Below, one piece after another: positions 28,486-56,019 of a stretch of 64,000 nt of DNA. Made by a program: the position numbers and the translations under genes. Positions within the stretch are counted from its first letter, which is position 1; each line of letters starts with the position of its first letter. The DNA is from Rhizodiscina lignyota. Taxonomy: Eukaryota. The notes below the pieces were generated by a model. It did no database searches and was not told the origin of the DNA. It saw only the letters and a list, made by a program, of their open reading frames with translations. The DNA lies in NCBI GenBank assembly GCA_010015805.1, contig ML978129.1:1426001-1490000 (forward strand), given 5' to 3'.

Positions 28486-31400
28486 TCAAACTGTTATTAG
28501 CTTGCTTTTATCGGCAATCTTAGCAGCAAAGCTCTCAATAGGCACAGCCGCCAGAATTTCCAAGAGTGCCATGTTCGCCTTCATCTCTCTAGTGATCCAA
28601 TTCCTCACCTCGAGCGCCACGAGGGAATCCACGCCGTAGCGGTACAACGGCCGGCCAGGGTCGACTTCAGAAGGAGGCATCTGGAGGATCTCCGCTGTCT
28701 TATGAACCAAAGCGTCCGTAATTATTTCCGCTGCTTTCTCCTTGCTACTGGCTTTGGAAAGTCTGGATGCTAGTGATTCGGTAGAGCCCTGGCCTTCTGC
28801 TGAGGCAGCAGTGACAACACTAGTGACGGCCAGGGGTCCAAAACGCGGGTTGCTGAAGTATTCCGGCTGGGCAAGACCATGAGTAGCCATAATGTCAGCG
28901 GTACCCAGACCCGTGCAAACCTGCACAGGGTAGTCTTCTCCAGATCCACGCTGTTGCTGATTGATCAGACTCTTCATGAGCGCGTGGAAAGCGGGCTCGC
29001 GGATACCCAAGACCTCTTCCCAGCGTTTGATATTACCAGTGGTACCGGTCTCTGCAAGTACACCAACGTCGCGCATGATGCCTAGGTCTACAGATATGGC
29101 CTTGAGGCCCTGAGAGCGGCGGTAGTGGGCAAGGGTGTCCTGGTATGTGTTTCCGGCCGCGTACTGCGCCTGACTGGGATACCCGTAGATTCCGGAGGTT
29201 GATGAGCAGATGACCATGAAGTCCAGCGGCCGCTCATGACTGAAGTATTTGTGCAGATTCCATGTCCCTTGGACCTTGGGGCCTACAGGAACGCTCCACT
29301 CCTCGTACGACATCTTCTCGAAAACGATGTCTCGAAGGACCATGGCCATCTGGATAACTCCCTTAATGGGCGGGAGCTGCTGTGAACACTGCTCCATGGC
29401 AGCAAAGAAGGAGGTCTCGTCAGCTATGTCGCCGCGGTAAGCCTTAACCAGTATTCCTTGACCCGACAGCTCGTCCAGGACAGCCTTTGCCTGGGGCGTG
29501 GTATCGCCAGATCGTGAGAGGAAAGCAATGTTCCTAGCTCCAGATGCCACAAACTCCTTTGCAAGACTGCGACCTAAGCCACCCAAACCACCGACGAAGA
29601 GGTACGTAGCTTCGGGATCAAGCTTCAAAGAATCTTTTGCCTTGCGTAGAACAGGAGCTTGGGCATCATCTGGGAACGAAAGTACTAGCTTACCACGATG
29701 CTTGCCCTGTTGCATGGTTCGGAACGCATCGCCAGCTTGGTTAATCGGATACACGTTCATAGGGCTTGGAGCCCGGAGGATACCCTTATCCAGGAGCTTG
29801 AAGGCCTCCTTGAGCATGTCACCAAAAGCAGCCGGGTCTTCTTCATAAAGGGTATGATTGTTGATGAATGTAAAGGTGGTGCTTTTACGGAAGGGCCGCA
29901 TGTCGAGGCGCATGTTGTTGGTAATGTCGCGCAGACCGATTTCGATGAAGGTTCCAAAGGTCGCAAGACAGCCCCAGGATGCCCTCAAGAGCTCTCCAGA
30001 CAGCGAGTTGAGGATGCAATCGACGCCACGACCACTTGTGATTCGATTGATGCCCTGTTCAATAATTAGCGGTCGGGATACGCGCAGCTGAAAGCTTTGA
30101 AAGTGTGTAATAATTCTTGAGACCATGTAATCGGAATGTATATGCAACTTTCAGACTATCCTTGAAGAAGTCTACAACTAGAAAAGGTCTCACCTTGACG
30201 AAACTAGCATCACGCGAGTTGAAGATGTGTTCCTCGGGAATATTGTACTGTTCCATGATGAGCCTTCGCTTGTCTTCTGTGCCCACAGTCACATAGATAA
30301 CTAGGCCTAGATGTTTTGCTAGCCTGGGGTACCGTGGAGTTAGCAGTTGCAATAACATGATGTTTGAGGACGTCTCGAGAGTACATAATAAAAGGAGAAG
30401 GGGCTCTGGTTCCTTACTGTATTGCTGCTTGCCCTACTCCTCCCGCCGCAGCGTGGATCAACACAGACTGGCCCCTACGAAGCTTTGCTGTGGCGACAAA
30501 GGCGTAGTATGCAGTGGTGTGTACCACAGGGACTGCTGCTGCCTCTTCAAAGGACATTGAGTCGGGAATTTTAGTCATGACACGACAGTCGGCTCGGATC
30601 CTGGTTCCGTGCGTCCCTAAACTTATGGTGCTCACGCGATCACCTGGCTTGAAGTCTGTTGCCTTGCTTCCTGTCCTGAGGACAACGCCACTGGCTTCCT
30701 GACCCAGCCACTGCACGGGAATCAGAGCCATGCATGCCATGATATCTCGGAAACTATGCGTAAGTTAGGTTAGTATACATCCCGTTGCATCGATGGTGTA
30801 GTAGGAGACACGTACTTCAGACCTGTAGCCTTGACTTGGATTTCAACCTCATGGTCTTGCAGCGGAGCAAGCATACGATCGTCAGAGACAAATTTTAAAG
30901 TGTCCAAAAGACCAGGCTTGCCGATCGTCAGTCGGAGGGGGTCGCTCTGGTCAGCCAGAGTTTCAAGGCGTGTGGAGTCGTGCAGATGGTAGTCAATACT
31001 TTCGTTCTGCTTGTAGCTCTTAAAAATACGGGCAACTTGAAGAATACCTCCCACTTCTCGATACTCATTGTCACTGCTGTCCGATTCGAGGATCCGGGTT
31101 GCAAGGGAAGGCCCATGATGTAGTCCCGTTGCCTCGCTGAGATGCAAGACTTCAAACTTGGTTCCTGCAATCTCTGTCGTGATACACCGTGCAAAGCCAT
31201 CCACCATGCCAAATGATGGGTTGTTGCCGTAGGTAATCCACAGGAGTCGCTCACAATTCAACACTACTGTTCGAAGATTCTCGAAGTCTGACTGAGAGAG
31301 ATTATCCAGTACTGGCTGCTCAAGCTCTAATAGAGATATGTATGTTTTGCCCTTGGCATCATCGGAGCTAATGTCACCGCCCCAAGGCTCCGTGAAAACA

Positions 31401-34400
31401 GAGTAGCCTTGGTGCTCGAGAACTTTCCGCAGAATGGAGGAGAAGCCTTCGGTAGCGGATTTTGCGGCGGATGGGCTGAGAAGAACAACTTCGTGCTTGG
31501 ATACGCCATTTGTAACAGCTTCCGTTTGAGATTCCTTGTTCGAGAACAAAGCGAGTGATTTGCCGTCCTGAATGCTGGAGACTATTTGGAACCCCTTGGC
31601 CACCAATCCAGAGCCCACAACATCATTGCTGGCAACAACGACAATAGTGACATCCGGTTTGGCTAGTTGCTGATTTGCCAGATCAATCAGACGTTCTAAG
31701 CTGTTTGCATCTTTGACTTCATGTGAGATGACCAATAGGTCGGCGGGAGCCACGTCGATGGGCAAGGGAGTACCGGTTTCGCCAAGAGAAAGTAATTGCT
31801 CGAATGTGTCCGCGTCCTTCTTGCCGTCTTTGCTGTTATTTACAACAGCATAACCAATCTGGCTTGGAAGAATGGCGCTTTTCGGTAACTTGGACATCGC
31901 TGCATTGGGAAGTTCACCCGCGTCTGAAATCAGCTCGGTGACGGTTGCCGCTGGGTTATGGTGGAGTATCATGCGAATAAGCTGCATTCCATGTCAGATA
32001 CATCGATCTTGTCTTCCCCACGTGCTGTATGTATTGATTGAGCCCGCAAAAGAGACGGAGAAAAGGTAAAAACAGACGACGCGGAGCTTACCTCGGTGAG
32101 CCTATCCTGGGTTGCAACCGCGCTCACCACCTGACTTATTTCCTGAGGCTGCAGTAGACCCAGCGCGTGGTTCCATTGGACCTCAGCAGTGATGTCGGCA
32201 GGGTCAACTTCGACACCTTCTCCATCCTGCTTTCCCGCGTCCATGTCCAGCTCTGAGGTTCGAAAGTCTTTGATAGACAAGAAGACCTTGGAAATATCTT
32301 TATCGAAGATAGAAATATCTGCAGATAACTCATTGAAGCCATATCTTTCCGAGCGACAGAGACCCGGCATGACATAGTCGGCAGCGCCCGGGATATTGAC
32401 AGATATCTCCAACTCGCCTATCGAAGTCGGCACAAACGGTTTATCAAACTCGAAAGCGCTGTTCTTGTATGTGCTGCCTAGCCAGCACTGGAAAATAGCA
32501 TCAAGAGATGCCGCGTTGATGAGGAACGGTCGATCAAACTGGTCCTTGCTGAACGTTTCTCCAACATCGACAAGCCTTATATCGAAGACGGTCTTCCCGT
32601 AACCGGGATGGCAATTCTCTACGCCCTGAAAGAGTTCCCCATAGCTCCACGAGGCCTTGGTCATGTGCTGGTAAAATCTTTCCTTGGCATAAGTCTCGGG
32701 GCAGTCTTTGAGAATGTTATGGTAGTCAACAATCTGTGCAGCCTCGATCCTGGTATCCTCCACAGCCATTTGGTCGCTCCGATTTTCTTCGTAGTCGATC
32801 GTCACTAAGCCTCTAGCATTGTCTCGCAGCTGGTCTGTTCCAACACACGAGGACACAGTCCACTCCCACCAGCTGGCGGGGGTTGAACCTGAGGTGGCGA
32901 TGACGTGTGGGCGTAGGTGGATGATGACCTCAGTAGCCAGGTCCTCTGGAAGAGCCATAGCAGCAAAGAGATTAACATCGCGCAGTCTGAAGGCACGGGC
33001 TGTCCTTCCCGCATCTACCAGCTGCTGAGCGGCTTCCAAGATTATGCTCACGATTCCGGCTCCTGGAAACAGCACGGTACTGCCCACGGTGTGGCCACGA
33101 AGCCAAGGCTCCTCCGAGAGTCGAATAAAGCCCCGCCATACGTATTCGCTTTCGGCCATCATAGGAACCGGGGCACCAATGAGGCTCCTCGTGGGAAATT
33201 TCTGTCCGACGAACTCCCTATGAATGCGAGAGTCTGCGCGGAATGTTTTGGAGTGGTTCCTGTATTTCAAATAACACTGTCAGCATACTGATAGTAGATT
33301 CTCCTCGGGGGAATTTGTAACGCTGAGGTATTCATACTTACCAGGGATACGAAGGGAGGTTCGTCAGCAGATGGCAGTGCGAGTCACCGTTGGTGCTTTG
33401 CACCTCGAGGGGCACACCTTGGAGGAACAGCTCGTCGGCAAGTTTCAGGCCATTGTCGAGCGAGTTCTCACCACGAGTAAGGACCGACTTGTAGCCGATA
33501 TTGTTAATACCGTGGTGGGACAAAATCTGCTCGATGGGGCCGCCCAGCGCACTGTGAGGGCCAACTTCAACCAGAAGGTCGACAGTGTTCTTGCCGTCGC
33601 CATCAACAGGTGTGACCAATTCTTTGACAGCGTCGGCGAACAACACGGGGGAGATGAGATTGCGGACCCAGTAGTAGGGGCCGAGGAGCTCCGAATCTAC
33701 TTCGCTGCCTGTAACACTGGATACCATAATGGGTTGTCCGTCAGATGGTGGGGCAGGCTTGAGATTGGCAATAGAGGCAGAATATTCCGCGAAGGCAGAG
33801 TTCATATGAGCGGAATGGTATGCCACGTCAACTCTGAGTCGCCGCGCAAACACACTCCGCTCATCCAAGATGGCTCGTAACTCTTCAAGCGCGGCGACAT
33901 CGCCAGAGAGCGTGACACTTGAAGGTGAGTTGACACAAGCGACTGTCACCAGGCCACCGGTGAGCTTGGTCTGGGCGATTATCTCGCCTGCCTCCTCTCG
34001 AGAGCATCCAACAGCCATCATACCACCATTGAGGCCTTTGAGTGGGAGCCTAGCCGAGGCTTCGCCTCTGAAATAGGCCGCTGAGATGGCGTCATAGTGA
34101 GACAAAGCTCCGATGCTGTATGCTGCAGCAATTTCTCCACTTGAATGGCCAACAACTTTCGAAGGCGTTATTCCCCACGAGTTCAACTCGTCGACTAACG
34201 CAACTTGCAAAACAGAGCAAATTGGCTGCGAAATCTCCGGTACGCCAAGTCGAGACTCGTCTTGTGCCTTGGACAGCTCCGTAACTGGGTCCCAATTGCA
34301 GCCCAAGTCTTTCAAAATTGCAGCAGATCTTGCCACAGAGTTCTTGAAAACGGGGCGTTCCAGTAGCTCGAGGCCCATGCGAGGCCACTGAGCGCCTTGC

Positions 34401-36429
34401 CCAGTGAAGACAAAACTAACCAGCAGCTCAGAGTCAGCAAATGTGTTTCAAAGAACTCGAAGAACATGCCCCAGTAAATAAAGAGTGTACATGTGAGGGA
34501 ATTTTCCAGCAAGGTTTGAAGACTCACCCGATACGTGGTTGGCTGTTTGCTGCCCGGGTGGCATTTGCTCCGGGCTCGGTTGATAATTGATGGCGCAGCT
34601 CAGCTGCACTCTCTGCAATATAAGTGGCTCTCCATGATAGGCCAGATCTCGCAACTGCAAGAGTGTGTGCAAGATTGGCAAGATATTCCGGGGTCGATGC
34701 GGTAGGGCCGAGGCTATCCAGGTGTTCGACGAGGGCGTCTCCTACACGCTTGAAGCCAGCTTGGTCTTGGCTGCTAAGGACAAAGAGTCTCTTGGCGTGA
34801 CGAGTTTTGTGGAGAGCAATACCGTTGGTGAGCATTTTCTGGCCTAACTTGAATGTCTCCAAGACGACATGTCCATTCGTCCCTCCCATCCCGAAGCCAC
34901 TGACACTCATGCGCCGCCCAGCTTTGGTGGCGGGCCAGGGCGTCAGTTTTGTGGGTACTGCCATATTCCATTCGTCTAGAGGAATGGCGGGATTTGGCTT
35001 TGAGAAATGGATGTTTGGCGGGATCTGACCATGCTCCATCGCTAGCACACCCTTGATGATGCCAGCAACTCCGGCAGCAGCCTCGAGATGGCCAATCTGA
35101 CCATGGTCAGTGACATGGACTAGAAGCAGTCGAACGAGATTTTGATAATGTTCGTACGGACGATTGGGCGATGTCGCCAAGATGGAGCTTGAGCATTCGC
35201 ATGTTGACATTCAACAGTAGAAGATAGACTTACGTTCGGCTTGACGCTACCAATCCATAGCTTGCGCGATTTCGTCGTGCTCTGGCCAATCGTACGGTGA
35301 ATCGCTCCGACCTCTTGTGGATCGCCGGCTTTGGTGCCAGTGCCCTAATCATGTACACGTCAGGTAACCGAAAAAGGCAAACGCTTTATGATGTTCAACC
35401 TACGTGAGCTTCAACGTACTGAGTTGAGCCATAATCCAGACCGTGTGACGTGTAGACGTATTTTATGAGAGCCGCCTGGGCTTCACTAGAGGGCATCGTC
35501 ACACCCTGCGTCCAACCATCTGAATTTACACCAGAGGCACGAATAACGGCTCGAATGGAATCTCCGTCTTCAAGTGCCTTGTCCAGTCGCTTCAAGATAA
35601 GAATGCCACAGCCCTCACCTCGACCGTACCCACCTGCATTCTCGTCGAATGCCCTGGAGTGACCTTCTGGGTTGAGGAATCCCAAGTTGTTGAGTTGCAT
35701 ATTACCATCTGGACTGATGATCATGCCAACCCCTCCGGCGATGGCCATTTCTGACTCTCCGGATTGTAGACTTTGACAGGCCAGATGAGTAGCCACGAGA
35801 CTTGATGAGCAAGCCGTATGAATGGTGGCGCTGGGACCATGAATATCCAAAAAATGCGAGACGCGGTTCGAGATCATTTCCTCGCAGGTTCCGAGAATAT
35901 GGTACTTAGGACTGTGCCCAAAGTCCCGGACAACAGCGTCTCGATAGTCGCTCATTGAGGAGCCGATATAGCAAGCAGTCTGAGTGCCAGCAACTTTTTG
36001 GAGCGTTTTGCCAGCATTTTCAAGAGCTTCGTAGACCACTTCCATCGCGATGCGCTGTTTTGGATCAAATGAAATGGCTTCCGCTGCCGTAATGTTGAAG
36101 AATGCCGCATCAAACGCGTAAGGGTCCTGCTTGAGGAAGTGTCCCCCCTTGGTGGCTAATACATTTTGGCGATTGCTAGCCTTTGGATGGTAGAATGAAT
36201 CTGCATTGTACCGGTCTGTTGTCGCGGAGTAGGCATCTTTGAGACTGTTAGTGGCCTGTAGATGACAAGGTGCAGCAAAGCTTTACTGCGTAAAGCCTCT
36301 AGCTCACTTACCTTTTCCATTCTTCAAAAGGTCCCAGAACTTTGATGGGGAGGTAGCATCACCCGGGAAACGACAGGCGAGGCCGACAATGGCTACAGGG
36401 ATGTGGGATGGGTTGTTGGTGGAAGGCAT
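28486..36429 (-). CDS. Highly reducing PKS, KS-AT-DH-(psiMT)-ER-KR-ACP, Hpm8/PKS4-like (10 exons)
   Basis: [81 protein letters not shown]. Nine GT-AG introns splice in frame with no internal stops found. Confidence 0.95.
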
Positions 36430-37331: not shown

Positions 37332-39018
37332 ATGGCGCCACAACTTACTGAAATCAACTTGGATCGATTCGCCAATCGCTCGACACTGTTGCTTGCTATT
37401 GCTCTAGTATGTTATTCACACCTCGCGCAACAGATTTGGCATTAACAGTCGTGTCAGCCCTTCTTATGGATTCTGATCTTGAGACCCATTTACTTGCTCT
37501 CTTTCCACCCACTCAGCAGGTTTCCTGGACCGAAGCTCTGGGCGGTTACCCGTTGGGGCGTTTCACTTGCGAATATTAGCGGCAGGTCTCGTTATATTCT
37601 TCTCGACCTGCACAAAAAGTATGGTCCTGTCGTGCGAATCGCTCCTGATGAAATCACCTTTCAGTCGATTACCGCCCGTACTGAAATTGCCGGTCACCGG
37701 AAAGTGGGCGAGCCAGAAATGATCAAGGAGCCTGTTTTCAATGAATCCTTCAGAAACAACATCATTGGCGCGAGTCGTGACGACCACGCACGTATGCGCA
37801 AGATCTTGGCACGTGGATTTGCTGCCTCGACTCTCCAGAGACAAGAGCCTTTGATCATTCAATATATTGACAAGCTTATTTCGGAACTCCATAAACGAGC
37901 CGATGGCACGAACTTCGATATCGAAGCTTGGTATGCGTACACTGCATTTGATATCATTGGCGATCTTACCTTTGGAGAGTCTTTTGGGTCTCTCGATAGC
38001 GGAGGGCATTCATCCTGGGCATCTTTACTCTTCGAGACCTCGAGAACCGTTGTGCTTGGGAACTCTTTGAAGAGAATCAGCAAAGCCTTATTGCCAGCCT
38101 TGCTACTCATCAGTAAGCTTAACTGCTCTCATTCCATAGACAGCTCGCACATTGCCATGCTAACGCATTGAATAGCTCCTAAGAATACGAGCAGGAGAAT
38201 GCAGGAAAACCGGGAGCTTACTGACGCCAAGATCGCCAAACGTCGTGCTCTTGGCACTAGCCGGCCTGACTTTATGTCGGGCATGCTCGGCGACGATGGA
38301 AAAGGAGGACTTCTTTCGGAAGATGAGCTCAAATCGAATTGTGATGCTCTTATGATTGCTGGCGCCGAGACCACGTCGACTGTTCTTGGGGGTATAACTT
38401 ATTACATGGCCACGACTCCTAGCGTATTGGAAAACGCCGCCACAGAAGTTCGTTCCACCTTTGTTCGGGATGAGGATATCAATATGATTGGGACTGCGCA
38501 TCTCAAATATCTTCAAGCTGTAATCACGGAAACCTTACGCATGTTGCCTCCGATTGCTGGAATCTCACCACGCCAAGTTCCTGCTGGGGGCGCTGTGATT
38601 GCCGGGGAATTTATTCCTGAATATGTATGTTTCCCCTACCCTTTCTCTGTGACTTTTCAGTCGTTGTAACTAATACTTTTCATTTGCAAAGACAACAGTT
38701 GGTGTGTCGCATTTCAGTATGGGGAGAGCTCCAGAGTACTTTTCGCGTGCAGATGAATTCCACCCTGAGCGCTGGCTTGACGGTCCCCTTTTCAAGAACG
38801 ACCAGAAGGAAGCAGCTCAACCATTCGCCGTTGGCCCGCGAAATTGTGTCGGGATGAACTTGGCTAACGTTGAGTTGCGGATAATTATCGCAAGAATTCT
38901 GTGGAACTTTGATTTGAAGCTTGATGAGAGTAGCATGAATTGGGAGCGTGATATGAATGAATATCTTGCTTGGGAGAAGGCACCACTTATAGTTTCTTTG
39001 ACGCCGAGACAGAAGTAG
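37332..39018 (+). CDS. Cytochrome P450 (Tri11/CYP65-like, 4 exons)
   Basis: N-terminal TM anchor, [27 protein letters not shown] and heme motif [10 protein letters not shown]; three introns in frame. Subfamily call is tentative. Confidence 0.93.
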
Positions 39019-40832: not shown

Positions 40833-43800
40833 ATGGAGTCGGCGTCGCAGACGATTCTCTACTTTGGAGACCAAACAGATTCTGCTGTGGACGGCATTGA
40901 CCAGCTGTACAGACAAGCTGCAACAATACCATGGCTCCAATCGTTCCTCGACGACATAGTTCAGGTCTTCAAGGAAGAGTCAAAGGGAATGGATCGCGTT
41001 TTACAAGACAGCCTCGGAGATTACCATAGCCTCTATGAACTCGCCGACAGATATCGCTACTCGACCGACCAAACGGGCATGGTGAATGCCATCCTGTTAC
41101 ATGCCGTGAGAGCAGCAATGCTACTACAGTGAGTATTGGCTGTACAATCAGAAAGTCGACCCTCACTGACCATAACAAGATGGGTACAGAGAGAGCCGCA
41201 GCTCGTGGACACAACGGGGCCAAAGCCTGAAAGGCTTGGTATCTCTGGAGGGCTCACGAATCTTGCTGCACTAGCCATCTCTACAGATTTTGAATCTCTG
41301 TATGATGCAGTGCTTGAGGTGGCCAGACTGTTTTTCAGACTTTGCAGGTTCACCTCCGTGCGATCGAGGGCCATGGAGGACCGCCCTGGATGCTGGGGCT
41401 GGGCTGTATTAGGAATTGAGCAAGATGAACTTCGCAAAGTTCTTGATCAGTTCCAACAAAGCATGGTGAGTGAGACCGCGCATAGCAGTTCAGCTTGCAG
41501 ACTGATTTACTGTTCAAAAGGGGATCCCAAGTATCAAGAGAGCAAAGGTCGGCGTCACTGGGGACCGATGGAGTACTATTGTTGGAGCACCATCGGTCCT
41601 GGAACTATTCATCAACCAATGCCCCGCTGTGAGGAATCTGCCAAAGACCGAGTTGAACATCCACGCCCTTCAACACGCAGTTACTGTCTCTCAGGCGGAT
41701 ATCGACTACATTGTTGGGAATTCGGCCTTGCTAGCTACTCCAATCCTCCCCGACTTCAATGTTTGGGGCATGGACGACCCCGAAGCCACCTATTCCAATT
41801 GGGGTGCTCTGCTTGGAGCTGTGATCACGCAAGTCCTGTCCCTACCATTGGATATTACGAAGGTCATGGGGCAACTCAATGCGAAGGTTGGCTCTCGCCG
41901 TCTTGATGTCAGGGTCATTGGTCCCAGCAGCCATACACCTTACATAGCCAGCGCTCTGAAGGCTGCAGGGGGCACCGCCACTCTTCACTACGACAAGTCC
42001 TTGGAACAAACGCAGTTGCCTGGACCAGACCGAATCGCCATCGTTGGGATGGCCGGACGTGGCCCAGGCAGTGATAATCCCAAGGAATTCTGGGACATCA
42101 TTATGTCTAAACAGGACCTTTGTGAGGAGGTTCCCAAAGATCGCTTCGACATTGAAGAGTATTTTTGTACGGAGCACGGAGACAAGTGCACGACGACTAG
42201 CCGCTTCGGTTGCTTCATGAACAAGCCCGGCAATTTCGATTCTCGCTTCTTCCATGTATCGCCCAGGGAGGCATTATTGATGGACCCAGGCCATCGGCAA
42301 TTTTTAATGAGTGCATATGAGGCTCTCGAAATGGCCGGATACTCGGATGGCCAAACGAAACCGACAGACCCAAAGAGGATCGCTGCCTTCTATGGGCAGT
42401 CTAATGACGACTGGCACATGTTGAGCCACTCCGCACTCGGTTGCGATGCATATACTCTCCAAGGAGCCCAGCGTGCATTTGGTAAGTACTAATTCCGGAT
42501 CAAAATGCAATGTTGACGTTTGAGTGTAGGGGCCGGTCGCATCGCCTTCCATTTCAAATGGGAGGGTCCGACTTACTCGCTTGATTCTGCCTGTGCTTCC
42601 GCGACTTCCTCCATGCATCTCGCCTGCATGAGCCTTCTCCACAAAGATATCGATATGGCCGTTGTAGGGGCAGCCAACATTTTGGGATATCCTCATTCAT
42701 GGACTAGTCTCAGCAAGTCCGGTGTCTTATCCGATACTGGAAACTGTAAAACCTACCGTGATGATGCGGACGGCTACTGTCGAGCCGATTTTGTCGGCAC
42801 CGTGGTGCTCAAACGTCTAGATGATGCTGTAGCTCAAAACGACAATATCCTTGCAGTAGTAGCTGGCTCAGGAAGAAACCACTCTGGCAACTCTACATCC
42901 ATTACAACGTCCGATGCCGGTGCTCAGGAAAGATTGTTTCGCAAGATCATGCAAAGTGCACGAGTCTCCCCCGATGACATCTCATATGTCGAAATGCACG
43001 GAACTGGTACTCAAATTGGCGATCCAGCAGAGATGAGCGCAATTGCGAACATCTTCCAGCACCGACAGGAACACAACCTCTTGACGGTCGGAGGTGTCAA
43101 GGCGAACGTCGGCCATAGCGAAGCGGTGAGCAACAGCTTCCTTGGACGTGTGTCTTCAAATTCTGACAATTTGAATTACAGGCTGCTGGCATGGCCTCGT
43201 TGCTGAAATGTATCATGATGTTTCAGGTAAGTCCATATTTTGGTACAAACTTCAAAGTCTTGACCTCTTCATAAGAACAGCTAGTTCAGGTCTGCTGATT
43301 TATGTTTTTGGGTACACAGAGGGATATTATGCCACCGCAGGCTGGGATGCCACATGCTCTCAATCCCAAATATACATCCCTCTCTAAGCTCAACATTGAG
43401 ATCCCTTCAGAGCCAAAGGAATTCAAGTCTGCCGACCAGAAGCCGAGACGCATCCTGCTAAATAACTTTGACGCAGCGGTATATCTCCACCGATGACTGT
43501 GTATTGACTTTGCTGACGCAGTTTTGCAGGGGGGCAATGCATGCATGCTGCTTGAAGACTATGCAGATAGCGGCAATAAAAGCGTAGACTCTCGACCTTG
43601 TCATGTTATTGTATCTTCTGCCAAAACACAAGCATCCTATCATGCAAATAAAGGCAATCTGCTTGGGTGGCTGCGGGAAAATCCAGATGTCAAGATCGAA
43701 GACATTGCCTACACAACCACTGCCAGAAGGGTGCATCATCCTTTGAGATTCGCCTGCACTGCGTCGACGACAAAAGATCTTATTAGCAAGCTCGAAGAAG

Positions 43801-46800
43801 ACACAGCAGACACGTCACCATCGCGAGTCTCACCGATCGTCTTCGTCTTCACCGGTCAAGGGTCCCACTATGCCGGAATGGGTAGCGAATTGTATGATAC
43901 ATGTCCTGCATTCCGCGAGACGGTCGACCTGTGTGCGAGCATCTGTGATGAGCACGGCTTTCCCTCATTTCTGGATATCATCACCAACAACAACGTCGAC
44001 ATGTCAAACAAAGACACGATACACACTCAACTGGCTGTGGTTACGCTGGAGATTGGGCTTGCTGCCTTCTGGAGATCATCCGGAATCCAACCATCAATGG
44101 TAATGGGACATTCTCTGGGTGAGTATGCTGCTCTGCATGTTTCTGGCGTTCTTTCGCTAGCCGACATGCTATATCTGGTTGGAAACAGAGCTCGTCTGCT
44201 CCTGGAGCGATGCGAAGCTGATACATGTGCAATGCTCGCCGTTTCGACACCTTTAGCTGTTATCCAGGAGCTCCTCGAAACAAGACCACAGTCATCTTGC
44301 GGGATAGCATGTACCAACAGCCCGAGTGCTACTGTCATCAGTGGGAGCATCGATGATATTGCCGAACTCCGGACAGCTTTGACATCACGCTCAAAGATGC
44401 TAACGGTTCCATACGGCTTTCACTCCTTCCAAATGGACTCGGTGCTGGACGACTACATCTCTCTCGCAGGAGGTGTTACATATTCGGTGCCCAAAATTCC
44501 AGTTGCATCACCCCTACTCGCTTCAATCGTGGAGACATCAGGAGTTTTCAATGGAGGTTATCTGGGTCAACAGACTCGGCAAACGGTCGATTTTGTCGGC
44601 GCCCTCAATGCTGTGAAAGATGAGCTCGCCGATCCAGTTTGGCTTGAGATTGGACCCAGCCAAGTCTGTGGCTCTTTCATTCGGGCGACTCTTTCCCCAC
44701 CTCCAGACAAGATCATGTCGACTTTAGATTCTGGCACAAATGCTTGGGTTTCCATCTCTAAATGTCTATCTGGCGCTTACAAGAGTGGCATCGCCATTGA
44801 CTGGCTTGCTTTTCATGCTCCTTTCGAGGGAAGCTTGAAACTATTGACACTGCCGTCATATGCTTGGGATTTGAAGGACTTCTGGATCGTCCATACCGAA
44901 CCACGGAAGACGGTGGCTATCGCTCCCGTTCATGCATTCGAAGCAAAAATCTCTACTTGCGCGCAATATGTTGTGCAAGAATCGTTATCACCCAATATCC
45001 AGGTGACTCTGCGAGCTTCGATTGCCGATCCGGATTTCATGGCTCTCATTGACGGCCATCGGATGCGAGATGTGTCGATTTGCCCAGGAAGTGTCTTCTG
45101 CGAAGCAGGTTTAGCTGCTGCTAAATATGCACTCCGGCACAGCGCCAGAAAAGACTGGCCGAGCGCCAAATTGGCTTTGCACAACATATCTCTCAAGCGT
45201 CCACTCACGAAAGACCTTGTTGGCTCCAAAGGGGAACTTCTCACGACGGCCGTCATTGACAAATTGTCTAGCGACAGCATTCAAGTTTCATGGAAGGCTA
45301 CTTCGGAACATTCCTCGTACGATTTCGGCAGCTGCGTCGTGACAGTTTGTGATGTGGACAGCCTCCAGGCTGGCTGGGACAGAACCTCTTTCTTCGTCAA
45401 GGCCAGGATGAACGAGCTGATTAAAAATGTCAAAGATGGGAATGGACATAGGATGCTACCTGGTATCCTTTATGCCCTTTTCTCCAACACAGTCGATTAT
45501 GACCCCGCTTTCAAAGGTATCAAAGAGGCGTTCATATCCAGCAATTTCGAGGAAGCTGCCGCGGAAATCGTCCTTCAAAACGACCCCCCGGGTACCAAGT
45601 TCATGTCATCACCTTACTGGGGCGAGAGTCTTGTGCAATTAGCTGGCTTCCTGGTCAATGCAGATCCTTCCCGCCAAATTGCCAAGACAACGTTCATGAT
45701 GGATAGCTTTGAGAGCTTCGAGCAGACTGTTGACTTGGAACCGGGACAAGCGTACTTCACCTACGTCCGTGTCTCAAGGAAGGAGGAAGATACAACAAGC
45801 TGCGACGTATTTGTCTTCGACTCAGAAAAATTGGTCATGCAATGTTCAGGCCTTCGTTTTCACGAGGTCAGCAATGCCATCTTGGACCGACTACTCGGGA
45901 AATCAACATCCAGTTCAGGGAATGTGTCGCAAGTCCAGAAAGAGGCACCCAAGGTGGCAATATACAGCCCCAAGACTTCATCGGAAGCCCACACGCAGGT
46001 CCCCACGTGGTCAGAGCCCAGCCCGGGGAATCTTTTGGAAACTTATGAGGCGCCCGGGCTATCCGAGACTATCGAGTCAGGACGTGAGGAAAAAATCGAT
46101 TCGGACACCGGTGTCTTTCATATCATTCTCGAGAGCATCTCCAAGGAAACAGGTACCAAAGTATCCGATTTCACGGATGATACGGCACTAGTTGAACTGG
46201 GTGAGTGTTCAATTCAATGTTGGTACAAAAATTGTCACCATTGAGACTGTCTTGGAGGTCATGTGCAGATGTTCCTCATAAAGCCCTTGGAACATACATG
46301 CTGACTTTGAGGTGGTACAGGTGTTGACTCTATAATGGGTATTGAGATCGCCGCCACAGTCGCCACTAGGACAGGTTCAGACATACTTCCCTCCTTCCTG
46401 CTGCAGTATCCCACGATCGGCGACCTGCGCGACGCATTTGCAGGATCCTCAAGATCTGAATCACCCGGCAAGCCTGCCTCTAGGTTCTCTCTGCTTGGGA
46501 GTACTCCGGAATCCACGCTCAGTCCGAGTATCACACCCGATGAAAAAAAAATGGAGACTCACGTTTCGGTCCTGGAAGTTGAGAAAATAGAGATGTCTCA
46601 ATCGCGGGTTGAGGACAACTCCCCTGCTCCAAGTGCCAGAATCATGCTGCTACAGGGCCGTCCATCGAGTGGAAAGCCTCCATTTTATCTCATTGCGGAC
46701 GGCACCGGCAGCATCGCCACATACATACACTTGCCTTCATTCAGGTCGAAGATGCCTGTTTACGGTATCGACTCGCCATATCTCCACTGCCCTAGCAGGC

Positions 46801-47492
46801 TGACTGCCAAAGTAGGCATTCCAGGCGCTGCAAGGCTCATTGTCGAGGCCTTAGTAAAGGCTCAGCCAGAGGGTCCATTCTCGATTGGAGGATTTTCCGG
46901 CGGGGCTATGATCGGTTACGAAGTATGCCGCCAACTAGCAGCAGCCGGGCGTATCGTGGATAGTCTTCTGCTTATGGACATGTGCTCTCCCCGTGCTGCT
47001 GGCGTCGAGGACACCATTGAAGTCGGCTGGAGAATCTACGAGAGCATAGCCTCTCACGATGGTCTCTGGAACGCGTCAGACCCTACCCAGCAACACCTTC
47101 GCGCGCTCTTCGCAAGTGTGGCTGCATACCACCCTCCACCCATGACAGCCGAAGAGCGGCCTCAACGAACTGCCATAATCTGGGCCAAAAAGGGCATGAT
47201 CGATCGGTGCTCCCGCGACGCCGAGCTGATGCAGTTGCTAGCTGATCGGGGTATTCCCACCGAGCCCTTTGCTGGCTTTATGGAGGATCCTAAAATGGGT
47301 GCGATCGCATGGGGTCTGCCACACAAGACCACTGCAGAGCTAGGTCCCAATGGATGGGACAGATATGTCGGGGAGGCGATGTGTCTATCCATCGACGCAG
47401 ACCATCTCGAGATGCCGATGCCAGGGCACGTGCACCTGCTCCATAGCGCGATGGAAGAGGCTTTCACGTACTTGAGTGGCGCGGATAACTAG
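40833..47492 (+). CDS. Non-reducing PKS, SAT-KS-AT-PT-ACP-TE, Hpm3/PKS13-like (8 exons)
   Basis: SAT FGDQT/GISGG; KS DSACAS/EMHGTGT/VGHSE; AT GHSLG; PT IDGHRM..CPGS; ACP GVDSI (split by an intron); TE GFSGG...ADH. Seven introns splice in frame. Confidence 0.95.
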
Positions 47493-47520
47493 GCAAGAGG
47501 AGTGACAAGTTTGTTGGAGA

Positions 47521-47538
47521 CTCTCTCTCTCTCTCTCT
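47521..47538 (+). repeat. (CT)9 microsatellite just downstream of the NR-PKS
   Basis: Directly visible ctctctctctctctctct. Confidence 0.9.
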
Positions 47539-48510
47539 TTTATTTCTTTTGGACCTGTTCCGCACCTCTGACTCTGGGCCGATGAGATATATTCAGGCTT
47601 GTCTCGTCATATAGAGTGCTTAATTAGATTGATAGATATAAGTGTTGAACGCTCTCTGAAGTCACCCATCTCCAATTATCCAAATAGGTTTGGGATAACC
47701 GCAACTGAATCTCAATCTCGAAGTGACCAACCTTAGATCAACCACACGTATTAAATATCTTCTCATGATGATACGACTAATCCTAAAGAGGCATAAAATA
47801 CTTTACGTATGTAAAATGTAAATTAGTGTTAAATATGCACACAAAGATACTTTAAATACGTACGTAAAACAGTAATTAACAGTGTTTTAGGCCACATAAA
47901 TAATAGGATTTACATGCCCTTGACTGAGCTAGCCCAAAGTGCGAGCTGTGCGTGCACCAAGTGCTTAGATTAAGGTGGAGGTCAAGGCTCTCAGAATGGT
48001 AGCTAAATGACAGGGTGGTATGAAGGGTGTGTTTCGCACTCTGGAGATCGGCACCACAGGATTATCCGAATTCGGACGTCGTGTCATGCCTGTTGCGCAT
48101 CTTATCACACTCCTTCAGCCTCATAGTGCGGTATATGCGGGCTGACTTCCACGTCCACCTCAACCCATCACTTCCACTTTTGTCAGTCGTCTGCCTCGCC
48201 TCACAGAGATTCGGAAGCAGGTCGCAGGATTCGTTCATAAGCCCTGAGACATTCATCTTTACACCCTAGATCGCTGGACCGGAAGGACGCCATCCGACAG
48301 CCAGTTCACGCAAAACGGCCAGTTTGCGAACCTTGCAATGCATCCCCATGGAGGAAGCCCCACAGGCAGTGGGGATTCGGAAACATGCATACCGTAGCTT
48401 TTGGGCTTCCTCGTTGTATGCTAAGAGCGCCGTGGCTTCGCCTATCAGCGCACGGCTTTGCTACTACTAATAGACCCACGAAGCTACTTTTCTCCCCCTT
48501 TATAAACATC

Positions 48511-48780
48511 GCCTTAGTTAGATGAACCAGATTAACCTTGTGGAGAGGTATCCACTCCTTACTGTAGAGGGTTAGCGGCCGTCTTTAGGGTACCGGGTAT
48601 CGCTTTTACAATATTCGACCGACGCTAAGTACGGGAACTAACTATCTAGCTACGTAGATTGATTGATCGGAGCCCCTGCTAGCGTTGGTCGAATAAAAGC
48701 GATAACCCCGGTACAACGAGGAAGCCTAAAAGCTACGGTATTCCGTACTTAGAGATTGTATGCTTATCTACATATTATCG
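48511..48780. mobile_element. RIP-mutated repeat/transposon relic (element not identifiable)
   Basis: Approximate hand count: TpA about 33 vs ApT about 19; CpA+TpG about 15 vs ApC+GpT about 34. Confidence 0.55.
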
Positions 48781-50357: not shown

Positions 50358-51164
50358 TTATCCCGTCATTTCTGCAGCCTTGATCCAACTTTCTCTCTGC
50401 TGTAAGCCGCTGAGCCACCTATCAAAGTTCGGATACTTTTCAAATGTTTCCTTATACCTCAACATCTTCAAAGCCGATGCATTAGGCAGGTGAAATAAGT
50501 CAGCTAAGGCCACTTCGTCTCCAGTAAGATATTTCTGTTTAGCTAGAGTCTTGTCATAAACAGCCAAAACTGTCTTAAGATCGGCTTCAGCCTGGGCGAC
50601 TCGTGCTTCGTCTGGGGGATCAAGGCCCTTCATTCTATTCAACATCTGATTAGTAATTCCGCAAAGAAGACAGGAAGTTCACAAGCACCAAGAAGACACC
50701 TACGCTTTAATTACGAGCTCAGTTCCCAGCGTCTCAGCAGCAGCCGCAAAATAGCATTGTTCGACAGAACAAGCTTGTTCGAAGACACCGTAGCCCATGT
50801 AATCGCCTTCGTCGGGGATCAATTTCGTTCCCGAAGGGTACTTTCTAACACACGATATCAATAAAATTGAATCTCAATCAATCACTCCTTTCAGTTCCGT
50901 CTTTCCTCAACACGCAAACGAAACACGACTGTGAAAGGCTTACCTTGCAATGTACCTGCAAATAGCCCTGCTTTCAAACATGAGAAACCCGTCGTCATCC
51001 AACACAGGGACCTTCCCAAAAGGCTGCATCTTTTTGAAGGCCTCGCTCTTTTGATCCCCCTTCGCAATGTCAATGAAGATGAATTCATATGGCAATTTCT
51101 TCTCTAGAATTGTGGTCAAGACACGGGCACCAGACATGGCAGAGCCATAAAGTTTGAGAACCAT
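50358..51164 (-). CDS. Glutathione S-transferase, Hpm2-like (3 exons)
   Basis: MVLKLYGSAMS..RVL, QPFGKVPVL, FESRAICRY, YLTGDEVALADLFH; two introns in frame. Confidence 0.93.
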
Positions 51165-51896
51165 TTTCGCTGTCGGGTTTCTTCACTCCGTATTGTGTGA
51201 GTGATTTTTTGATAAATGGAAAAGGGCTGATCACAAAACTACGGAGGTGCCAGCCATAAATTTTGTCACCGGCCGTTTGAGACTGTCCAATGAAACGGGG
51301 GCGTTAGGAGGACCGCCCATTGGCCACAGCAAGATAAGCGCGCTGAAGGCCCCCTGCCGAGATCTTCCCCAGGATTATGTTCATGGGTCTGAAATGGTAA
51401 ACAGCACCCTTCGGGAGTAGGCAATAGGCCAAAACTTAACGAATCCCAGGCAAAATATAAGAAGCCCTTCGCTAAGAATGAGGCGGACGCGCCTCGGTCA
51501 GCTTCTAGGTAGAAGCTGAAATCTGTGGAGTAACATGAAGTCGGATCAGGGGGCATTCATCCCCACAGCACTTGCAGCCTCCGTGGGGGACCTGGTATGC
51601 TCTTTTTTGGGATGCATATTTTAATTTCATGACATTGTGTGCTACATAGCCAAAAATAGCGGTGTAGTAGTCAAGTTTCGTGCATGTTGTAAATACTGGG
51701 TTTGAACGATGACATTGGAGCTTACGGTTACTCCCCAAGGATAGAGATGATTTTCACATGTGGTATCCAATTCTTCCACTCTGCGGAATTAGGAATATTA
51801 ATTTCATTTTCGTCCTTCAACAAAGTTGTCAAGAACCTGCTATTGTTGCTGACCTCGAGTACTGGTAGGCAGCTTCTTCCAACTTTTCTTCCCGTC

Positions 51897-53689
51897 ATGG
51901 AAGACACGAAAGAGACTCTCCCAGCCGCCAATATGGAGCATACTCCAGAGCTCAATCCCTCACCCTCTACCAAGGGAGAGGTGCCTACCTCTTCGAGTTC
52001 TGGGGTTATTAGTCGCAATCCCGACAGCAGAGACGCGCCTGTGTTGGAGGAAAACAACTACATCTCCGGAATCAAGCTCGCTATAGTTGTCGCAGCACTT
52101 TGCGTAGCGAATTTCTTCGTTGCGTTGGATATTACGATTCTGGGAACTGCTATCCCGAGGATCTCCACGCAATTCAATTCCCTTCAGGATGTCGGCTGGT
52201 ACGCCTCTGCGTATCTACTTACGGATTGCTCCTTTCAATTATTGTTTGGGAAACTTTACACACACTTCGACATCAAAACGATATTCGTCGGGGCGATGAC
52301 TATTTTTGAGATTGGTTCTCTGCTGAATGGTGTTGCTCCTAACAGTCCAGTATTTATCCTGGGTCGGGCTATTGCTGGAGTTGGGGCGGCGGGTGCCTTT
52401 GCGGGTGGTAGGTTTCCACAAGGCTTACTCTCTTCCTCGTGTCCGCCAATTCCAGGAAGGTATTGACTTATGACATAGCTCTCATCATAATCATTCATTC
52501 AGTTCCAGCGGAGAAAAGAGCGCAATACTCGGGCATGATAGTCGGCATGTACGGACTCGCATCTGTTGCCGCACCCTTGACGGGTGGAGCCTTCACGGAT
52601 CATGTTACCTGGCGTTGGTGTTTTTACATCAACCTTCCCTGCGGTGGCGTCGCTATTGCTGGCATATTGTTCTTTTTCAAATCCCCAAAGCTCAACACTA
52701 CTTTCGACTCTTCCCTCAGCCTACGGGCACGGATTATGAAATTCGACCCTTTCGGGACAACCTTCTTCCTCGGTTCGATAACTTGTCTCCTCCTTGCTCT
52801 TCAACTGGGTGGATCCACATACAACTTCACGAATGCTCGGATCATCGTCCTCTTCATCTTGTTTGGCCTTCTCATGATTGCCTTTCTATTGTTTCAGTTC
52901 TGGGAGGGTAACGCTACCATTCCCCCAAGAGTCTTGAAGCAGCGAACCATGCTTTTCGGGTCTTTTTACATGTTCTGCAGTGGCGCCCAATTCCTCATCT
53001 TCGTCTACTATCTTCCCATTTGGTTTCAAGGCGTCCGTGGAACATCGGCGATTCAGTCAGGCATTCGCACGCTGCCCCACCTCCTCGGGAGTACCTTGAT
53101 GGTAGTTTTCTCCGGTGTCATGGTCTCTATAACAGGCCACTACATCCCTTTCATGTGGGCTTCTGTAGTGTTAGGTTCGATCGGCGCCGGGCTTCTTACT
53201 ACCTTGAAGGTTGACTCCAGTTCAGCAAAATGGATCGGCTATCAGATCATCACCGGTATTGGCAACGGTTTGGGATACCAGCAAGGAATTACTGCTGCGC
53301 AAACAGTCCTTGAAGGAAGTGACATGAACATCGGTACGGCAATGATGGTTTTCGTGCAGTTGCTTGGTGGTACGATTTTCGTTTCAGCATCAAACAATGT
53401 GTTTGATACGAGGTTGGTCAAAGATTTACGAAGAACGGTTCCGGATCTGGATCCGGAAAGTGTACTCAAAGCGGGTGCGACGGGGTTGAGAAAGGTGGCA
53501 AGCGAGGCAGACCTTCCGAAGGTGTTAGTGGCATACAACAATGCGTTGACCAAGACATTCGAAATTGGATTGATTTTCGCTTGTTTGGGAGCTATTGGTG
53601 CTGCAGGGATGGAGTGGAGGACAGCCCAGACGAAAGAGCGGCAGAAGGAAGGGTCTCAGGCTGAAGGGTCTCAGACTCCTGATCCTTGA
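51897..53689 (+). CDS. MFS drug:H+ antiporter (DHA2, 14-TM; 2 exons, intron 52408-52478)
   Basis: [42 protein letters not shown] and YLPIWFQ. Confidence 0.95.
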
Positions 53690-54894: not shown

Positions 54895-56019
54895 CTACAT
54901 CGACATATCCACGACGAGCTTGCCACCGGGCGTTCGATGATACTCCTCTACGAGCCTGTTCAAATCCGACAAAGGATACCTCCTTTGAACTGCTTTCACG
55001 CCATTATTTGCCGCAAACTCAAGCATCTCCGTTGCGAGCTTGTTACTGCTAAGTAGGCATCCAACAAATGAGATTTTCCGCGCCACGATATCCATGGCCG
55101 AGATGTTGAATCCGTTCACTGGATACGAAACGACTACCACCGTGCCATGATTCTTGACCAGCTGCACACCATAGTCGAATGCCTTCTGCGACTCTGTGAG
55201 AATTACTATGCAGTCTACTCCCATCTCGCCTCTATCTTTCTTTCCTTCTCGTCTCCCAAGCTCCTTAACAACCGCATTGGCAGTCTCTTTTCTCGCGTCT
55301 ACAATCCAAGCTCCTGTGCTTAAAGACTCGGCAAGCTCTACTGGCTGATCTGCAGCATCAACACCCACGACCGCCATGCCCATCTTGGTGGCAAACTGGA
55401 GTCCAAGATGACCGAGACCTCCACCGCAGCCCATAATTCCTACTGTACGTCCGGGTTGGGGATCACACTTCTTAAGTGCTGCATAAATCGTCATGCCGGC
55501 GCACATCATCGGCGCTGTGTCGACTGAGCTGAACCCGTCAGGAATTTTGACGACCTGTCTTGCGTCCGCAAGCGCATATTCGGCAAAGCCACCATGCTGG
55601 TCGACACCGATACTTAGCGCGTGAGCACAGTATACCGAGTAGCCGGGTGCATCGCTGTCGGGCCCGGCCTCCTTAGTGCATTCAAAACAAGTTCCGCAAG
55701 GATGGAACGAGCAGCTGGGGATGCCAACACGCGTACCAACTGGGAAGTTTTTAGCTGCTGGCGATGCGCCTTCCGATAGCTTCACAACAGTGCCGGCAAA
55801 CTCGTGGCAGCCGATATGTGGGAATGAAGGTGGATTCGGAGCGAAATGGCCGGCGACTAGCGTGGCATCTGTATGACAGTACCCGGCAGCGTCGACCTTG
55901 ACGAGCAAATCGTGTGGTGAGGATGTTGCTGGGACTTCCGCATCTCGAAAGCTGTATGGTTGGCGATAGGCATCGAGAAATTGCGCCTTCATAGTGCGGG
56001 GAATCTCCGGCACCGTCAT
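54895..56019 (-). CDS. Zn-dependent alcohol dehydrogenase (MDR family), intronless
   Basis: GYCHTD, GCHEFAG, structural-Zn CGTCFEC..C, MCAG and GCGGGLG. Confidence 0.92.
   Translation of the reverse strand: MTVPEIPRTMKAQFLDAYRQPYSFRDAEVPATSSPHDLLVKVDAAGYCHTDATLVAGHFAPNPPSFPHIGCHEFAGTVVKLSEGASPAAKNFPVGTRVGIPSCSFHPCGTCFECTKEAGPDSDAPGYSVYCAHALSIGVDQHGGFAEYALADARQVVKIPDGFSSVDTAPMMCAGMTIYAALKKCDPQPGRTVGIMGCGGGLGHLGLQFATKMGMAVVGVDAADQPVELAESLSTGAWIVDARKETANAVVKELGRREGKKDRGEMGVDCIVILTESQKAFDYGVQLVKNHGTVVVVSYPVNGFNISAMDIVARKISFVGCLLSSNKLATEMLEFAANNGVKAVQRRYPLSDLNRLVEEYHRTPGGKLVVDMSM

What the first reader, a model, noticed from the sequence alone, without database searches (positions are those of the whole stretch)
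28486..56019. Intact hypothemycin-type dual-PKS RAL cluster with a non-canonical tailoring set
Seen: complete HR-PKS and SAT-KS-AT-PT-ACP-TE NR-PKS in divergent orientation, plus P450, GST, MFS and an adjacent Zn-ADH, all with intact frames. Known: HR/NR-PKS pairs make benzenediol lactones. The hypothemycin cluster has P450, GST, OMT, MFS, FMO and FAD oxidoreductase; zearalenone has an FAD oxidase and a bZIP; radicicol has a halogenase and a P450. The PKS and GST sequences closely resemble Hpm8, Hpm3 and Hpm2 as I recall them. No OMT, FMO, FAD oxidase or halogenase was found in this window. Inference: the gene set matches none of those clusters and predicts a non-methylated, non-chlorinated 14-membered RAL built on a dehydrozearalenol-like scaffold, possibly a new congener.
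Basis: partly seen in the sequence, partly recalled or inferred. Interest (0 to 1): 0.85.

Follow-up and report, generated by a model that had tools for sequence, protein, structure and literature searches.

The report
Trimmed hypothemycin-family fungal lactone cluster
A wood-dwelling fungus carries an intact but pared-down relative of the gene cluster for the kinase inhibitor hypothemycin, lacking three finishing enzymes and with an altered oxidase, so it probably makes a simpler, unmethylated lactone that may already be a known compound.

Summary
Six genes splice to intact frames: HR-PKS, P450, NR-PKS, GST, MFS and a Zn-ADH. The NR-PKS is 72% identical to Hpm3 and has the resorcylate-type PT residues; the P450 is 63% identical to Hpm1. 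No O-methyltransferase, flavin monooxygenase or FAD oxidase lies in the cluster; the nearest OMT is about 105 kb away. Hpm5/7/9 orthologues elsewhere could not be tested. This is a reduced, rearranged hypothemycin-family cluster in Rhizodiscina lignyota, whose HR-PKS is already in a published macrolactone survey. Likely products (dehydrozearalenol and hydroxylated or oxidised unmethylated forms) mostly match known compounds, and a 14-membered ring is not proven because LasS2 lies in the same clade. New here: the P450 departs from its orthologues at 21.7% of otherwise invariant columns (others 1-8%) while the NR-PKS is the most conservative of its clade. The ADH is a pocket-remodelled duplicate of a widespread family, not seen on the contigs of other Hpm-type clusters. 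A variant of a known kind, of moderate interest.

The parts
28486..36429 (-). Highly reducing PKS, KS-AT-DH-(no methyltransferase domain detected)-ER-KR-ACP, 2357 aa, 9 introns; Hpm8-like
   Evidence: Intact spliced model; Pfam; motifs [59 protein letters not shown]; two segments listed in the PMC12721105 supplement with best hit Hpm8 at 92.5% and 75%; other PKSs in the genome at most 45%
37332..39018 (+). Cytochrome P450, 501 aa, 3 introns; diverged member of the Hpm1 clade
   Evidence: Identical to KAF2096875; 63% to Swiss-Prot hmp1, 55-66% to the other orthologues, at most 44% to anything else retrieved; clade support 100/100; differs at 56 of 258 columns invariant in 7 orthologues
40833..47492 (+). 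Non-reducing PKS SAT-KS-AT-PT-ACP-TE, 2061 aa, 7 introns; Hpm3/LasS2 clade, resorcylate-type PT
   Evidence: 72% Hpm3, 68% LasS2, 76% Xanthocarpia, 62% Fusarium PKS13-like, 60% RadS2; trees; PT Y1438/F1558/L1566 as in Hpm3, LasS2 and RadS2, against F/Y/W in CurS2
48389..48741 (.). Small non-autonomous inverted-repeat (MITE-like) element between NR-PKS and GST
   Evidence: 30-nt arms, 97% complementary; about 205 nt of it matches three other places in the genome at 86-90%
50358..51164 (-). Glutathione S-transferase, 212 aa, 2 introns; Hpm2-like
   Evidence: Intact model; second-best of 150 listed representatives (59%) is auto-named 'glutathione s-transferase hmp2'; it is the best of 2 matches to that protein in the genome, 55% against 29%; Hpm2 itself was not retrieved
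51897..53689 (+). MFS efflux pump (MFS_1/TRI12-like), 573 aa, 1 intron
   Evidence: Intact model; Pfam; Atlas clusters generic; orthology to Hpm6 not tested
54895..56019 (-). Zn-dependent alcohol dehydrogenase, 374 aa, no intron; diverged duplicate of a widespread fungal family; membership of the cluster uncertain
   Evidence: Zinc ligands and NAD-type Asp kept; own paralogue 63% on another contig, family 55-63%; differs at 38 of 203 family-conserved columns against 0-12 for 40 other members
26357..27562 (+). PRISE-like Rossmann-fold reductase flanking the HR-PKS 3' end; probably outside the cluster, not tested against other clusters
   Evidence: Pfam PF22917; GC3 0.64 like the housekeeping flank against 0.50-0.56 for the six cluster genes; paralogues only 26-39%

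Best explanation
A reduced and rearranged hypothemycin-family resorcylic acid lactone cluster. Shown: six intact genes, Hpm3 and Hpm1 clade membership, resorcylate-type PT residues, and no OMT, FMO or FAD oxidase at the locus. Inferred: the HR-PKS builds a reduced hexaketide; the NR-PKS takes it over with its SAT, adds three malonates, closes the C2-C7 aromatic ring and releases the 14-membered lactone 7',8'-dehydrozearalenol (DHZ), as Hpm8 plus Hpm3 do in yeast. The P450 then hydroxylates the macrocycle, at the Hpm1 positions (C-5', perhaps C-4'; recalled) or, given its altered pocket, at one or another position. The result is an unmethylated, unepoxidised, unchlorinated RAL of the DHZ / aigialomycin D type, exported by the MFS, with the GST kept for self-protection. 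In this reading the ADH is a bystander.
For: NR-PKS 72% to Hpm3, and closer to Hpm3 than to LasS2 in SAT (79 vs 72), PT (68 vs 65), ACP (68 vs 61) and TE (73 vs 65; the LasS2 model used has a gap in its TE), equal in KS and AT. HR-PKS best hit Hpm8 in a published set and similar length, 2357 against 2349 aa. Hpm8+Hpm3 give DHZ at 20 mg/l in yeast (PMC8374128 table). Hpm1 orthologues lie 3-5 accession numbers from Hpm3-clade NR-PKSs in Westerdykella, Thozetella, Hymenoscyphus and Xanthomendoza. No missing-family gene in 224 kb except one distant OMT. The ADH family is widespread and none of 120 listed relatives is on an Hpm-cluster contig; no shared upstream motif above chance.
Against: No product, expression or activity data. 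LasS2 sits in the same clade and the order inside it is weakly resolved, so ring size is not fixed; a review table labelled LasS2 'hypothemycin' from similarity alone. The GST is kept intact, which suggests an enone is made, and DHZ-type allylic alcohols have none. The P450 lacks several Hpm1 pocket residues. The ADH is directly adjacent and has changed pocket residues. Hpm5/7/9 orthologues elsewhere are not excluded.
Confidence: 0.45

Rival explanations
1. The ADH duplicate was recruited in place of the lost FAD oxidase (Hpm9/ZEB1 role) and oxidises the 6'-hydroxyl to the enone. The GST then isomerises or detoxifies the enone, giving 7'-dehydrozearalenone or 4-O-desmethyl-oxozeaenol-type Michael acceptors, possibly with a new hydroxylation pattern.
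For: The ADH is an extra copy (paralogue 63% on another contig) at the cluster edge, between the MFS and the housekeeping gene APC1. It keeps all zinc ligands but differs at 38 of 203 family-conserved columns, including positions that align with the pocket of solved ADHs (S102, L323; pocket assignment recalled). Its GC3 (0.54) matches the cluster genes (0.50-0.56). The GST is retained. ZEB1 performs this oxidation in the zearalenone pathway (PMC12115441).
Against: Not found beside other Hpm-type clusters (0 of 120 listed relatives). Much of the divergence is shared with P0255 (30 of 203) and the paralogue (21 of 203), so it began before or apart from this locus. No shared promoter motif. GC3 of nearby non-cluster genes spans 0.47-0.71, so the match is weak.
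Confidence: 0.25
2. The pathway is split: an OMT, FMO and FAD oxidase elsewhere in the genome act in trans, and the fungus makes hypothemycin, LL-Z1640-2 or zeaenol-type compounds.
For: The genome holds many members of each family: 21 OMT matches, 20 FMO matches (17 of 162 candidates scored) and 45 FAD-oxidase matches. The GST and MFS are retained.
Against: None lies within about 105 kb of the cluster. No relic of these genes at the locus. The P450 no longer carries the Hpm1 signature shared by 8-10 orthologues, which fits a changed substrate.
Confidence: 0.12
3. The scaffold is not DHZ: the HR-PKS makes a pentaketide or a differently reduced chain, giving a 12-membered (lasiodiplodin/resorcylide-type) or otherwise new lactone, and the P450 pocket changed to fit it.
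For: LasS2 is in the same 100%-supported clade at 68%. The HR-PKS was compared with Hpm8 only over two short KS/AT segments. P450 changes are enriched in hand-drawn substrate-recognition windows (28 of 84 against 55 of 259, p=0.028).
Against: The NR-PKS is the least changed member of its clade (17 of 732 invariant columns) and groups with lichen enzymes (85/90) rather than LasS2. An Hpm1-clade P450 and an Hpm2-like GST belong to the hypothemycin set.
Confidence: 0.11
4. A decaying, silent remnant: after losing three genes the cluster is no longer under selection and the P450 and ADH are drifting.
For: Gene loss, a transposon-like insert inside the cluster, no regulator gene in the cluster, and P450 changes at residues conserved in both orthologues and outgroups (42 of 83 changed columns).
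Against: All six frames and 22 introns are intact. The NR-PKS is unusually conserved. About 150 neutral amino-acid changes without a stop have a probability near 5e-4 under a rough 5% nonsense rate (crude estimate).
Confidence: 0.07

Closest known systems
Hypothemycin (hpm) cluster, Hypomyces subiculosus
   Same: Hpm3-clade NR-PKS (72%), Hpm1-clade P450 (63%), HR-PKS with best hit Hpm8, Hpm2-like GST, an MFS pump.
   Different: Order differs: here the P450 directly precedes the NR-PKS, between the two PKSs, while hpm1 and hpm3 are two accessions apart. The P450 lacks the Hpm1 pocket signature. An ADH duplicate is adjacent.
Lasiodiplodin (las) cluster, Lasiodiplodia theobromae
   Same: NR-PKS in the same clade (LasS2 68%), same PT signature.
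   Different: The las pathway uses an O-methyltransferase (LtOMT) and makes a 12-membered ring (recalled). No Lasiodiplodia Hpm1-clade P450 appeared among the 120 listed P450 hits. LasS1 was not compared.
Zearalenone cluster, Fusarium graminearum (PKS4, PKS13, ZEB1, ZEB2)
   Same: Same two-PKS logic and unmethylated 14-membered RAL.
   Different: NR-PKS only about 62% and in a separate clade. No FAD oxidase at the locus and no bZIP domain among the scanned window ORFs; P450 and GST present instead.
Radicicol clusters (rdc/rad)
   Same: HR/NR-PKS pair with resorcylate-type PT, a P450 and an MFS.
   Different: RadS2 60%, separate clade. No halogenase at the locus; the 2 genome matches to PF04820 are on other contigs.
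Uncharacterised Hpm3/Hpm1 clusters of Teloschistaceae lichens, Westerdykella, Thozetella, Hymenoscyphus, Neocucurbitaria
   Same: Nearest NR-PKS relatives (76% Xanthocarpia); NR-PKS and Hpm1 orthologue lie 3-5 accession numbers apart in four of them. A Neocucurbitaria cluster is already called hypothemycin-related.
   Different: They carry the canonical Hpm1 signature. Their full gene content could not be read.

Membership tests
Benzenediol lactone (collaborating HR/NR-PKS) clusters | HR-PKS of the macrolactone clade, KS-AT-DH-ER-KR-ACP | tested here: met
   Domains and motifs; placed in the macrolactone clade with weight 100 in the PMC12721105 supplement
Benzenediol lactone (collaborating HR/NR-PKS) clusters | Adjacent SAT-KS-AT-PT-ACP-TE NR-PKS of the BDL clade | tested here: met
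Resorcylic acid lactone subtype | PT residues for C2-C7 closure | tested here: met
   Y1438/F1558/L1566 match Hpm3, LasS2, RadS2 and differ from CurS2 F1455/Y1576/W1584; that these three positions decide the mode is recalled, PT control of the mode is stated in PMC9114375
Resorcylic acid lactone subtype | Macrolactone product of defined ring size | not testable with these tools
   Needs expression and chemistry
Hypothemycin cluster | Hpm3 orthologue | tested here: met
   72% over the full length; 100/100 clade that also holds LasS2
Hypothemycin cluster | Hpm8 orthologue | tested here: inconclusive
   Only indirect: best hit Hpm8 at 92.5% and 75% over two short segments in a published table; Hpm8 and LasS1 sequences were not retrieved
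Hypothemycin cluster | Hpm1 orthologue | tested here: met
   63%, clade 100/100, best match to Hpm1 in the genome; but sister to all other members (95/98) and without their pocket signature
Hypothemycin cluster | Hpm2 orthologue | tested here: inconclusive
   Close to a protein auto-named hmp2; Hpm2 itself not retrieved
Hypothemycin cluster | Hpm6 orthologue (MFS) | tested here: inconclusive
   Only family-level hits
Hypothemycin cluster | Clustered O-methyltransferase (Hpm5) | tested here: not met
   Nearest OMT about 105 kb away among housekeeping genes
Hypothemycin cluster | Clustered flavin monooxygenase (Hpm7) | tested here: not met
   No hit in 224 kb with 178 own-genome segments (no separate positive control for this family) or by Pfam
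Hypothemycin cluster | Clustered FAD oxidase (Hpm9) | tested here: not met
   No hit in 224 kb with 156 segments; control found 30 of 30 family loci; none of 45 PF01565 matches is on contig C9
Hypothemycin cluster | Hpm5/7/9 orthologues elsewhere in the genome | not testable with these tools
   The reference sequences were not returned by any search; only family-level scans were possible
Zearalenone cluster | PKS13-clade NR-PKS, ZEB1 oxidase, ZEB2 bZIP | tested here: not met
Radicicol cluster | RadS2-clade NR-PKS and flavin halogenase | tested here: not met
Lasiodiplodin cluster | LasS1-type pentaketide HR-PKS and OMT | tested here: inconclusive
   OMT absent; LasS1 not compared; NR-PKS nearer lichen enzymes and Hpm3 than LasS2

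The most novel reading that the evidence does not exclude
The cluster has been rebuilt rather than merely trimmed: a neofunctionalised Zn-dehydrogenase replaces the FAD oxidase as the maker of the enone warhead, and a P450 with a remodelled pocket hydroxylates a new position, so that the fungus makes an undescribed unmethylated enone RAL by a convergent route. A variant of this reading is that the set is an early-branching, pre-hypothemycin state of the pathway: the P450 is sister to all Hpm1 orthologues and keeps outgroup-like residues at 30 of 83 changed columns, and a basal NR-PKS is not rejected (p-AU 0.083).
Probability: 0.15. Interest if true: 0.62.

Novelty: new variant of a known kind. 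Interest (0 to 1): 0.38.

Why it matters
The order and chemistry of hypothemycin tailoring were proposed largely from gene content (recalled). A natural cluster holding only the PKS pair, P450 and GST, with a P450 that differs in its pocket from about ten near-uniform orthologues, is a ready comparison for finding what Hpm1 hydroxylates and what the GST does. cis-Enone RALs are covalent kinase inhibitors whose supply and late-stage enone installation are limiting (PMC8313427, PMC7865919), so a new P450 regiochemistry or an NAD-dependent 6'-oxidase would be useful tailoring tools. If the product is DHZ or aigialomycin D, the finding only links a known compound to a compact cluster.

Tried and rejected
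No RNA holder was listed for 46311-56100; this says nothing about expression. The metagenome scan with the P450 alignment gave 5 loci; the only close one (69%) is a 2.7 kb contig holding the P450 alone. Relic genes between the cluster genes: none by tblastn, Pfam on 84 short ORFs, own-genome search or Atlas; the ORFs at 49532-50206 stay unexplained. Shared promoter motif: 7-9-mers in the three core promoters did not exceed shuffles, and no CGG-type pair was common. PDB searches gave only distant PKSs, ADHs and CYP3A. Direction of change: the P450 as sister to all Hpm1 (95/98) and the NR-PKS as sister to lichen enzymes (85/90) disagree, and neither alternative is rejected (p-AU 0.081 and 0.083), so loss against ancestral absence is open. 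One tree did not finish and one ended without support values. Reeves et al. 2008 is not held, so roles of the hpm tailoring genes are recalled. The search for Hpm gene names in papers returned unrelated work. The supplementary note on the Neocucurbitaria cluster was not seen and may describe a comparable gene set. No structure prediction was run, because coordinates are not returned for pocket analysis.
Full report
Observation. The window is fungal DNA, G000:C9:1426001-1490000 of a 33.4 Mb assembly. My P450 model is letter for letter the public protein KAF2096875 of Rhizodiscina lignyota. The locus is flanked by a PRISE-like reductase, a tyrosine phosphatase and pyruvate decarboxylase on the left and by APC1 on the right. 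Contigs of run X1 tile 36300-56299 without differences and break only at a small repeat; this may be the source sample, so it checks assembly, not biology.

Identity of the core. The NR-PKS is 76% identical to a Xanthocarpia protein, 72% to Hpm3, 68% to LasS2, 62% to a Fusarium PKS13-like protein and 60% to RadS2. It falls in a fully supported clade with Hpm3, LasS2 and uncharacterised enzymes; inside it, it groups with lichen enzymes at 85/90, and a basal position is not rejected (p-AU 0.083). The PT has Y1438, F1558 and L1566, as Hpm3, LasS2 and RadS2, where the DAL synthase CurS2 has F, Y and W; that these positions decide the ring closure is recalled. No second close NR-PKS or HR-PKS exists in the genome. 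The HR-PKS is already in a published macrolactone set: the supplement of PMC12721105 lists two segments, at positions that equal window 34958-35564 and 33656-34149, in the macrolactone clade with best hit Hpm8 at 92.5% and 75%. I could not align it with Hpm8 or LasS1 directly. Hpm8 plus Hpm3 give 7',8'-dehydrozearalenol in yeast (PMC8374128 table).

The missing genes. Pfam found no OMT, FMO, FAD-oxidase or halogenase domain in 41 window ORFs or 84 short intergenic ORFs. Among 90 selected ORFs of the 160 kb of flank it found one OMT. tblastn with the genome's own OMT, FMO and FAD-oxidase segments (109, 178, 156) over 224 kb found only that OMT, about 105 kb from the ADH among housekeeping genes; the oxidase control recovered 30 of 30 loci. 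The genome has 21 OMT, 20 FMO (17 of 162 candidates scored) and 45 oxidase matches elsewhere. Whether any is an Hpm5, Hpm7 or Hpm9 orthologue was not testable, as those sequences were never returned.

The P450. Ten proteins at 60-69% over the searched exon, Hpm1 among them, stand apart from the rest at 50% or less. In four genomes such a P450 lies 3-5 accession numbers from an Hpm3-clade NR-PKS. The window's P450 belongs to this clade (100/100) but is sister to all nine others in the tree (95/98); nesting is not rejected (p-AU 0.081). It differs at 56 of 258 columns invariant in seven orthologues (21.7%), where each of the others differs at 1.0-8.2%; by the same measure the NR-PKS differs at 17 of 732 (2.3%), the lowest of eight. 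Of 83 changed columns, 30 carry the residue commoner in outgroup P450s, 42 depart from both groups and 11 are ties. The I-helix reads IAGAETTST against LGGAETISS, the B'-C loop IIGA against LLGV, and the C-terminal turn EYLAW against EYFGW. Changes are modestly enriched in hand-drawn substrate-recognition windows (28 of 84 against 55 of 259, p=0.028). The heme and ExxR motifs are intact. I infer an active enzyme whose selectivity may differ from Hpm1's.

GST, MFS, ADH. The GST's second-best representative is auto-named hmp2 and the window gene is its best match in the genome; this is indirect. The MFS could only be placed at family level. It keeps its zinc ligands but differs at 38 of 203 family-conserved columns, against 30 for its nearest relative P0255, 21 for its paralogue and 0-12 for 40 others. 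No shared promoter motif links it to the cluster. Recruitment is possible but unshown.

Mechanism. Most likely (0.45): HR-PKS and NR-PKS make DHZ; the P450 hydroxylates it; the product is unmethylated, unepoxidised and unchlorinated, and is exported by the MFS. Steps shown are gene content, intact frames, clade membership and PT type; chain length, P450 site, GST role and expression are inferred. Rivals: the ADH replaces the FAD oxidase and makes an enone (0.25), which would explain why the GST is kept; unlinked genes complete the pathway (0.12); a different ring size (0.11); a decaying remnant (0.07).

Comparison and novelty. It works like the first half of the hypothemycin pathway but fails membership on three clustered genes, and fails the zearalenone and radicicol sets. 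Similarity alone does not fix the product in this clade: a review table labels LasS2 'hypothemycin' although the las pair is listed for lasiodiplodin. Unmethylated congeners are known: trans-7',8'-dehydrozearalenol, 7'-dehydrozearalenone and aigialomycin D (PMC7663581; PMC6356354) and 4-O-demethylhypothemycin (PMC8313427); that aigialomycin D is 5'-hydroxy-DHZ, and that a desmethyl-oxozeaenol is known, are recalled. A search for the species name listed 10 of 11 papers, none by title on this cluster or its chemistry (listing only). I rate it a new variant of a known kind, interest 0.38.

What I saw of each paper: PMC12721105 passages, Discussion part 1, supplement searches and part 1 of file 1, with file 2 cut when stored; PMC12115441 passages, section 9.2 and a supplement search; passages only of PMC8313427, PMC13680316, PMC7663581, PMC11026467, PMC9114375, PMC13514119, PMC6356354, PMC7865919, PMC8374128 and bioRxiv 10.1101/2025.10.09.681339; nothing of Reeves et al. 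2008 or Xu et al. 2013 (recalled).

Noticed in passing
window 26357-27562 (+): PRISE-like (progesterone 5-beta-reductase/iridoid synthase family) reductase directly beside the HR-PKS 3' end; an enone reductase by family, so a possible tailoring gene, but its GC3 resembles the housekeeping flank.
   Followed up: partly
window 48389-48741: MITE-like element with 30-nt terminal inverted repeats and inner inverted repeats; partial copies on C2, C5 and C20.
   Followed up: partly
window 49532-50206: Overlapping ORFs of about 100 aa on both strands with no Pfam hit; those tested had no Atlas or own-genome hit; may be a decayed gene.
   Followed up: partly
window about 12850-16974: NmrA-like gene (-) and a divergent Zn2Cys6 transcription factor (+), 11.5 kb left of the HR-PKS and separated from it by PDC and a phosphatase; its zinc-cluster motif recalls regulators annotated after the curvularin regulator (recalled, untested).
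   Followed up: no
window NR-PKS residue 1484: Gln four residues after the PT glutamate, shared with Xanthocarpia, where Hpm3, LasS2, RadS2, CurS2 and the Fusarium enzyme have His.
   Followed up: no
G000:C2:2595714-2606366: A halogenase-like match, a thioesterase-bearing PKS-like match and an O-methyltransferase match within about 11 kb: a separate cluster.
   Followed up: no
L027:365-2334: Metagenome Hpm1 orthologue that appears to have two introns around the DLTFGESFG motif which the window's P450 lacks.
   Followed up: no
P0003 (LasS2 model) TE region; P0246: The P0003 model lacks the GxSxG stretch of the thioesterase, probably a gene-model error; P0246 is an NR-PKS model fused to an upstream MFS, suggesting an adjacent transporter in Xanthocarpia lactea.
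   Followed up: no
window 1272-25230 and 56922-63306: Ordinary neighbours: F-box protein, DUF1674 protein, xanthine dehydrogenase, beta-lactamase-family esterase, HET-domain protein, pyruvate decarboxylase, tyrosine phosphatase, APC1.
   Followed up: no
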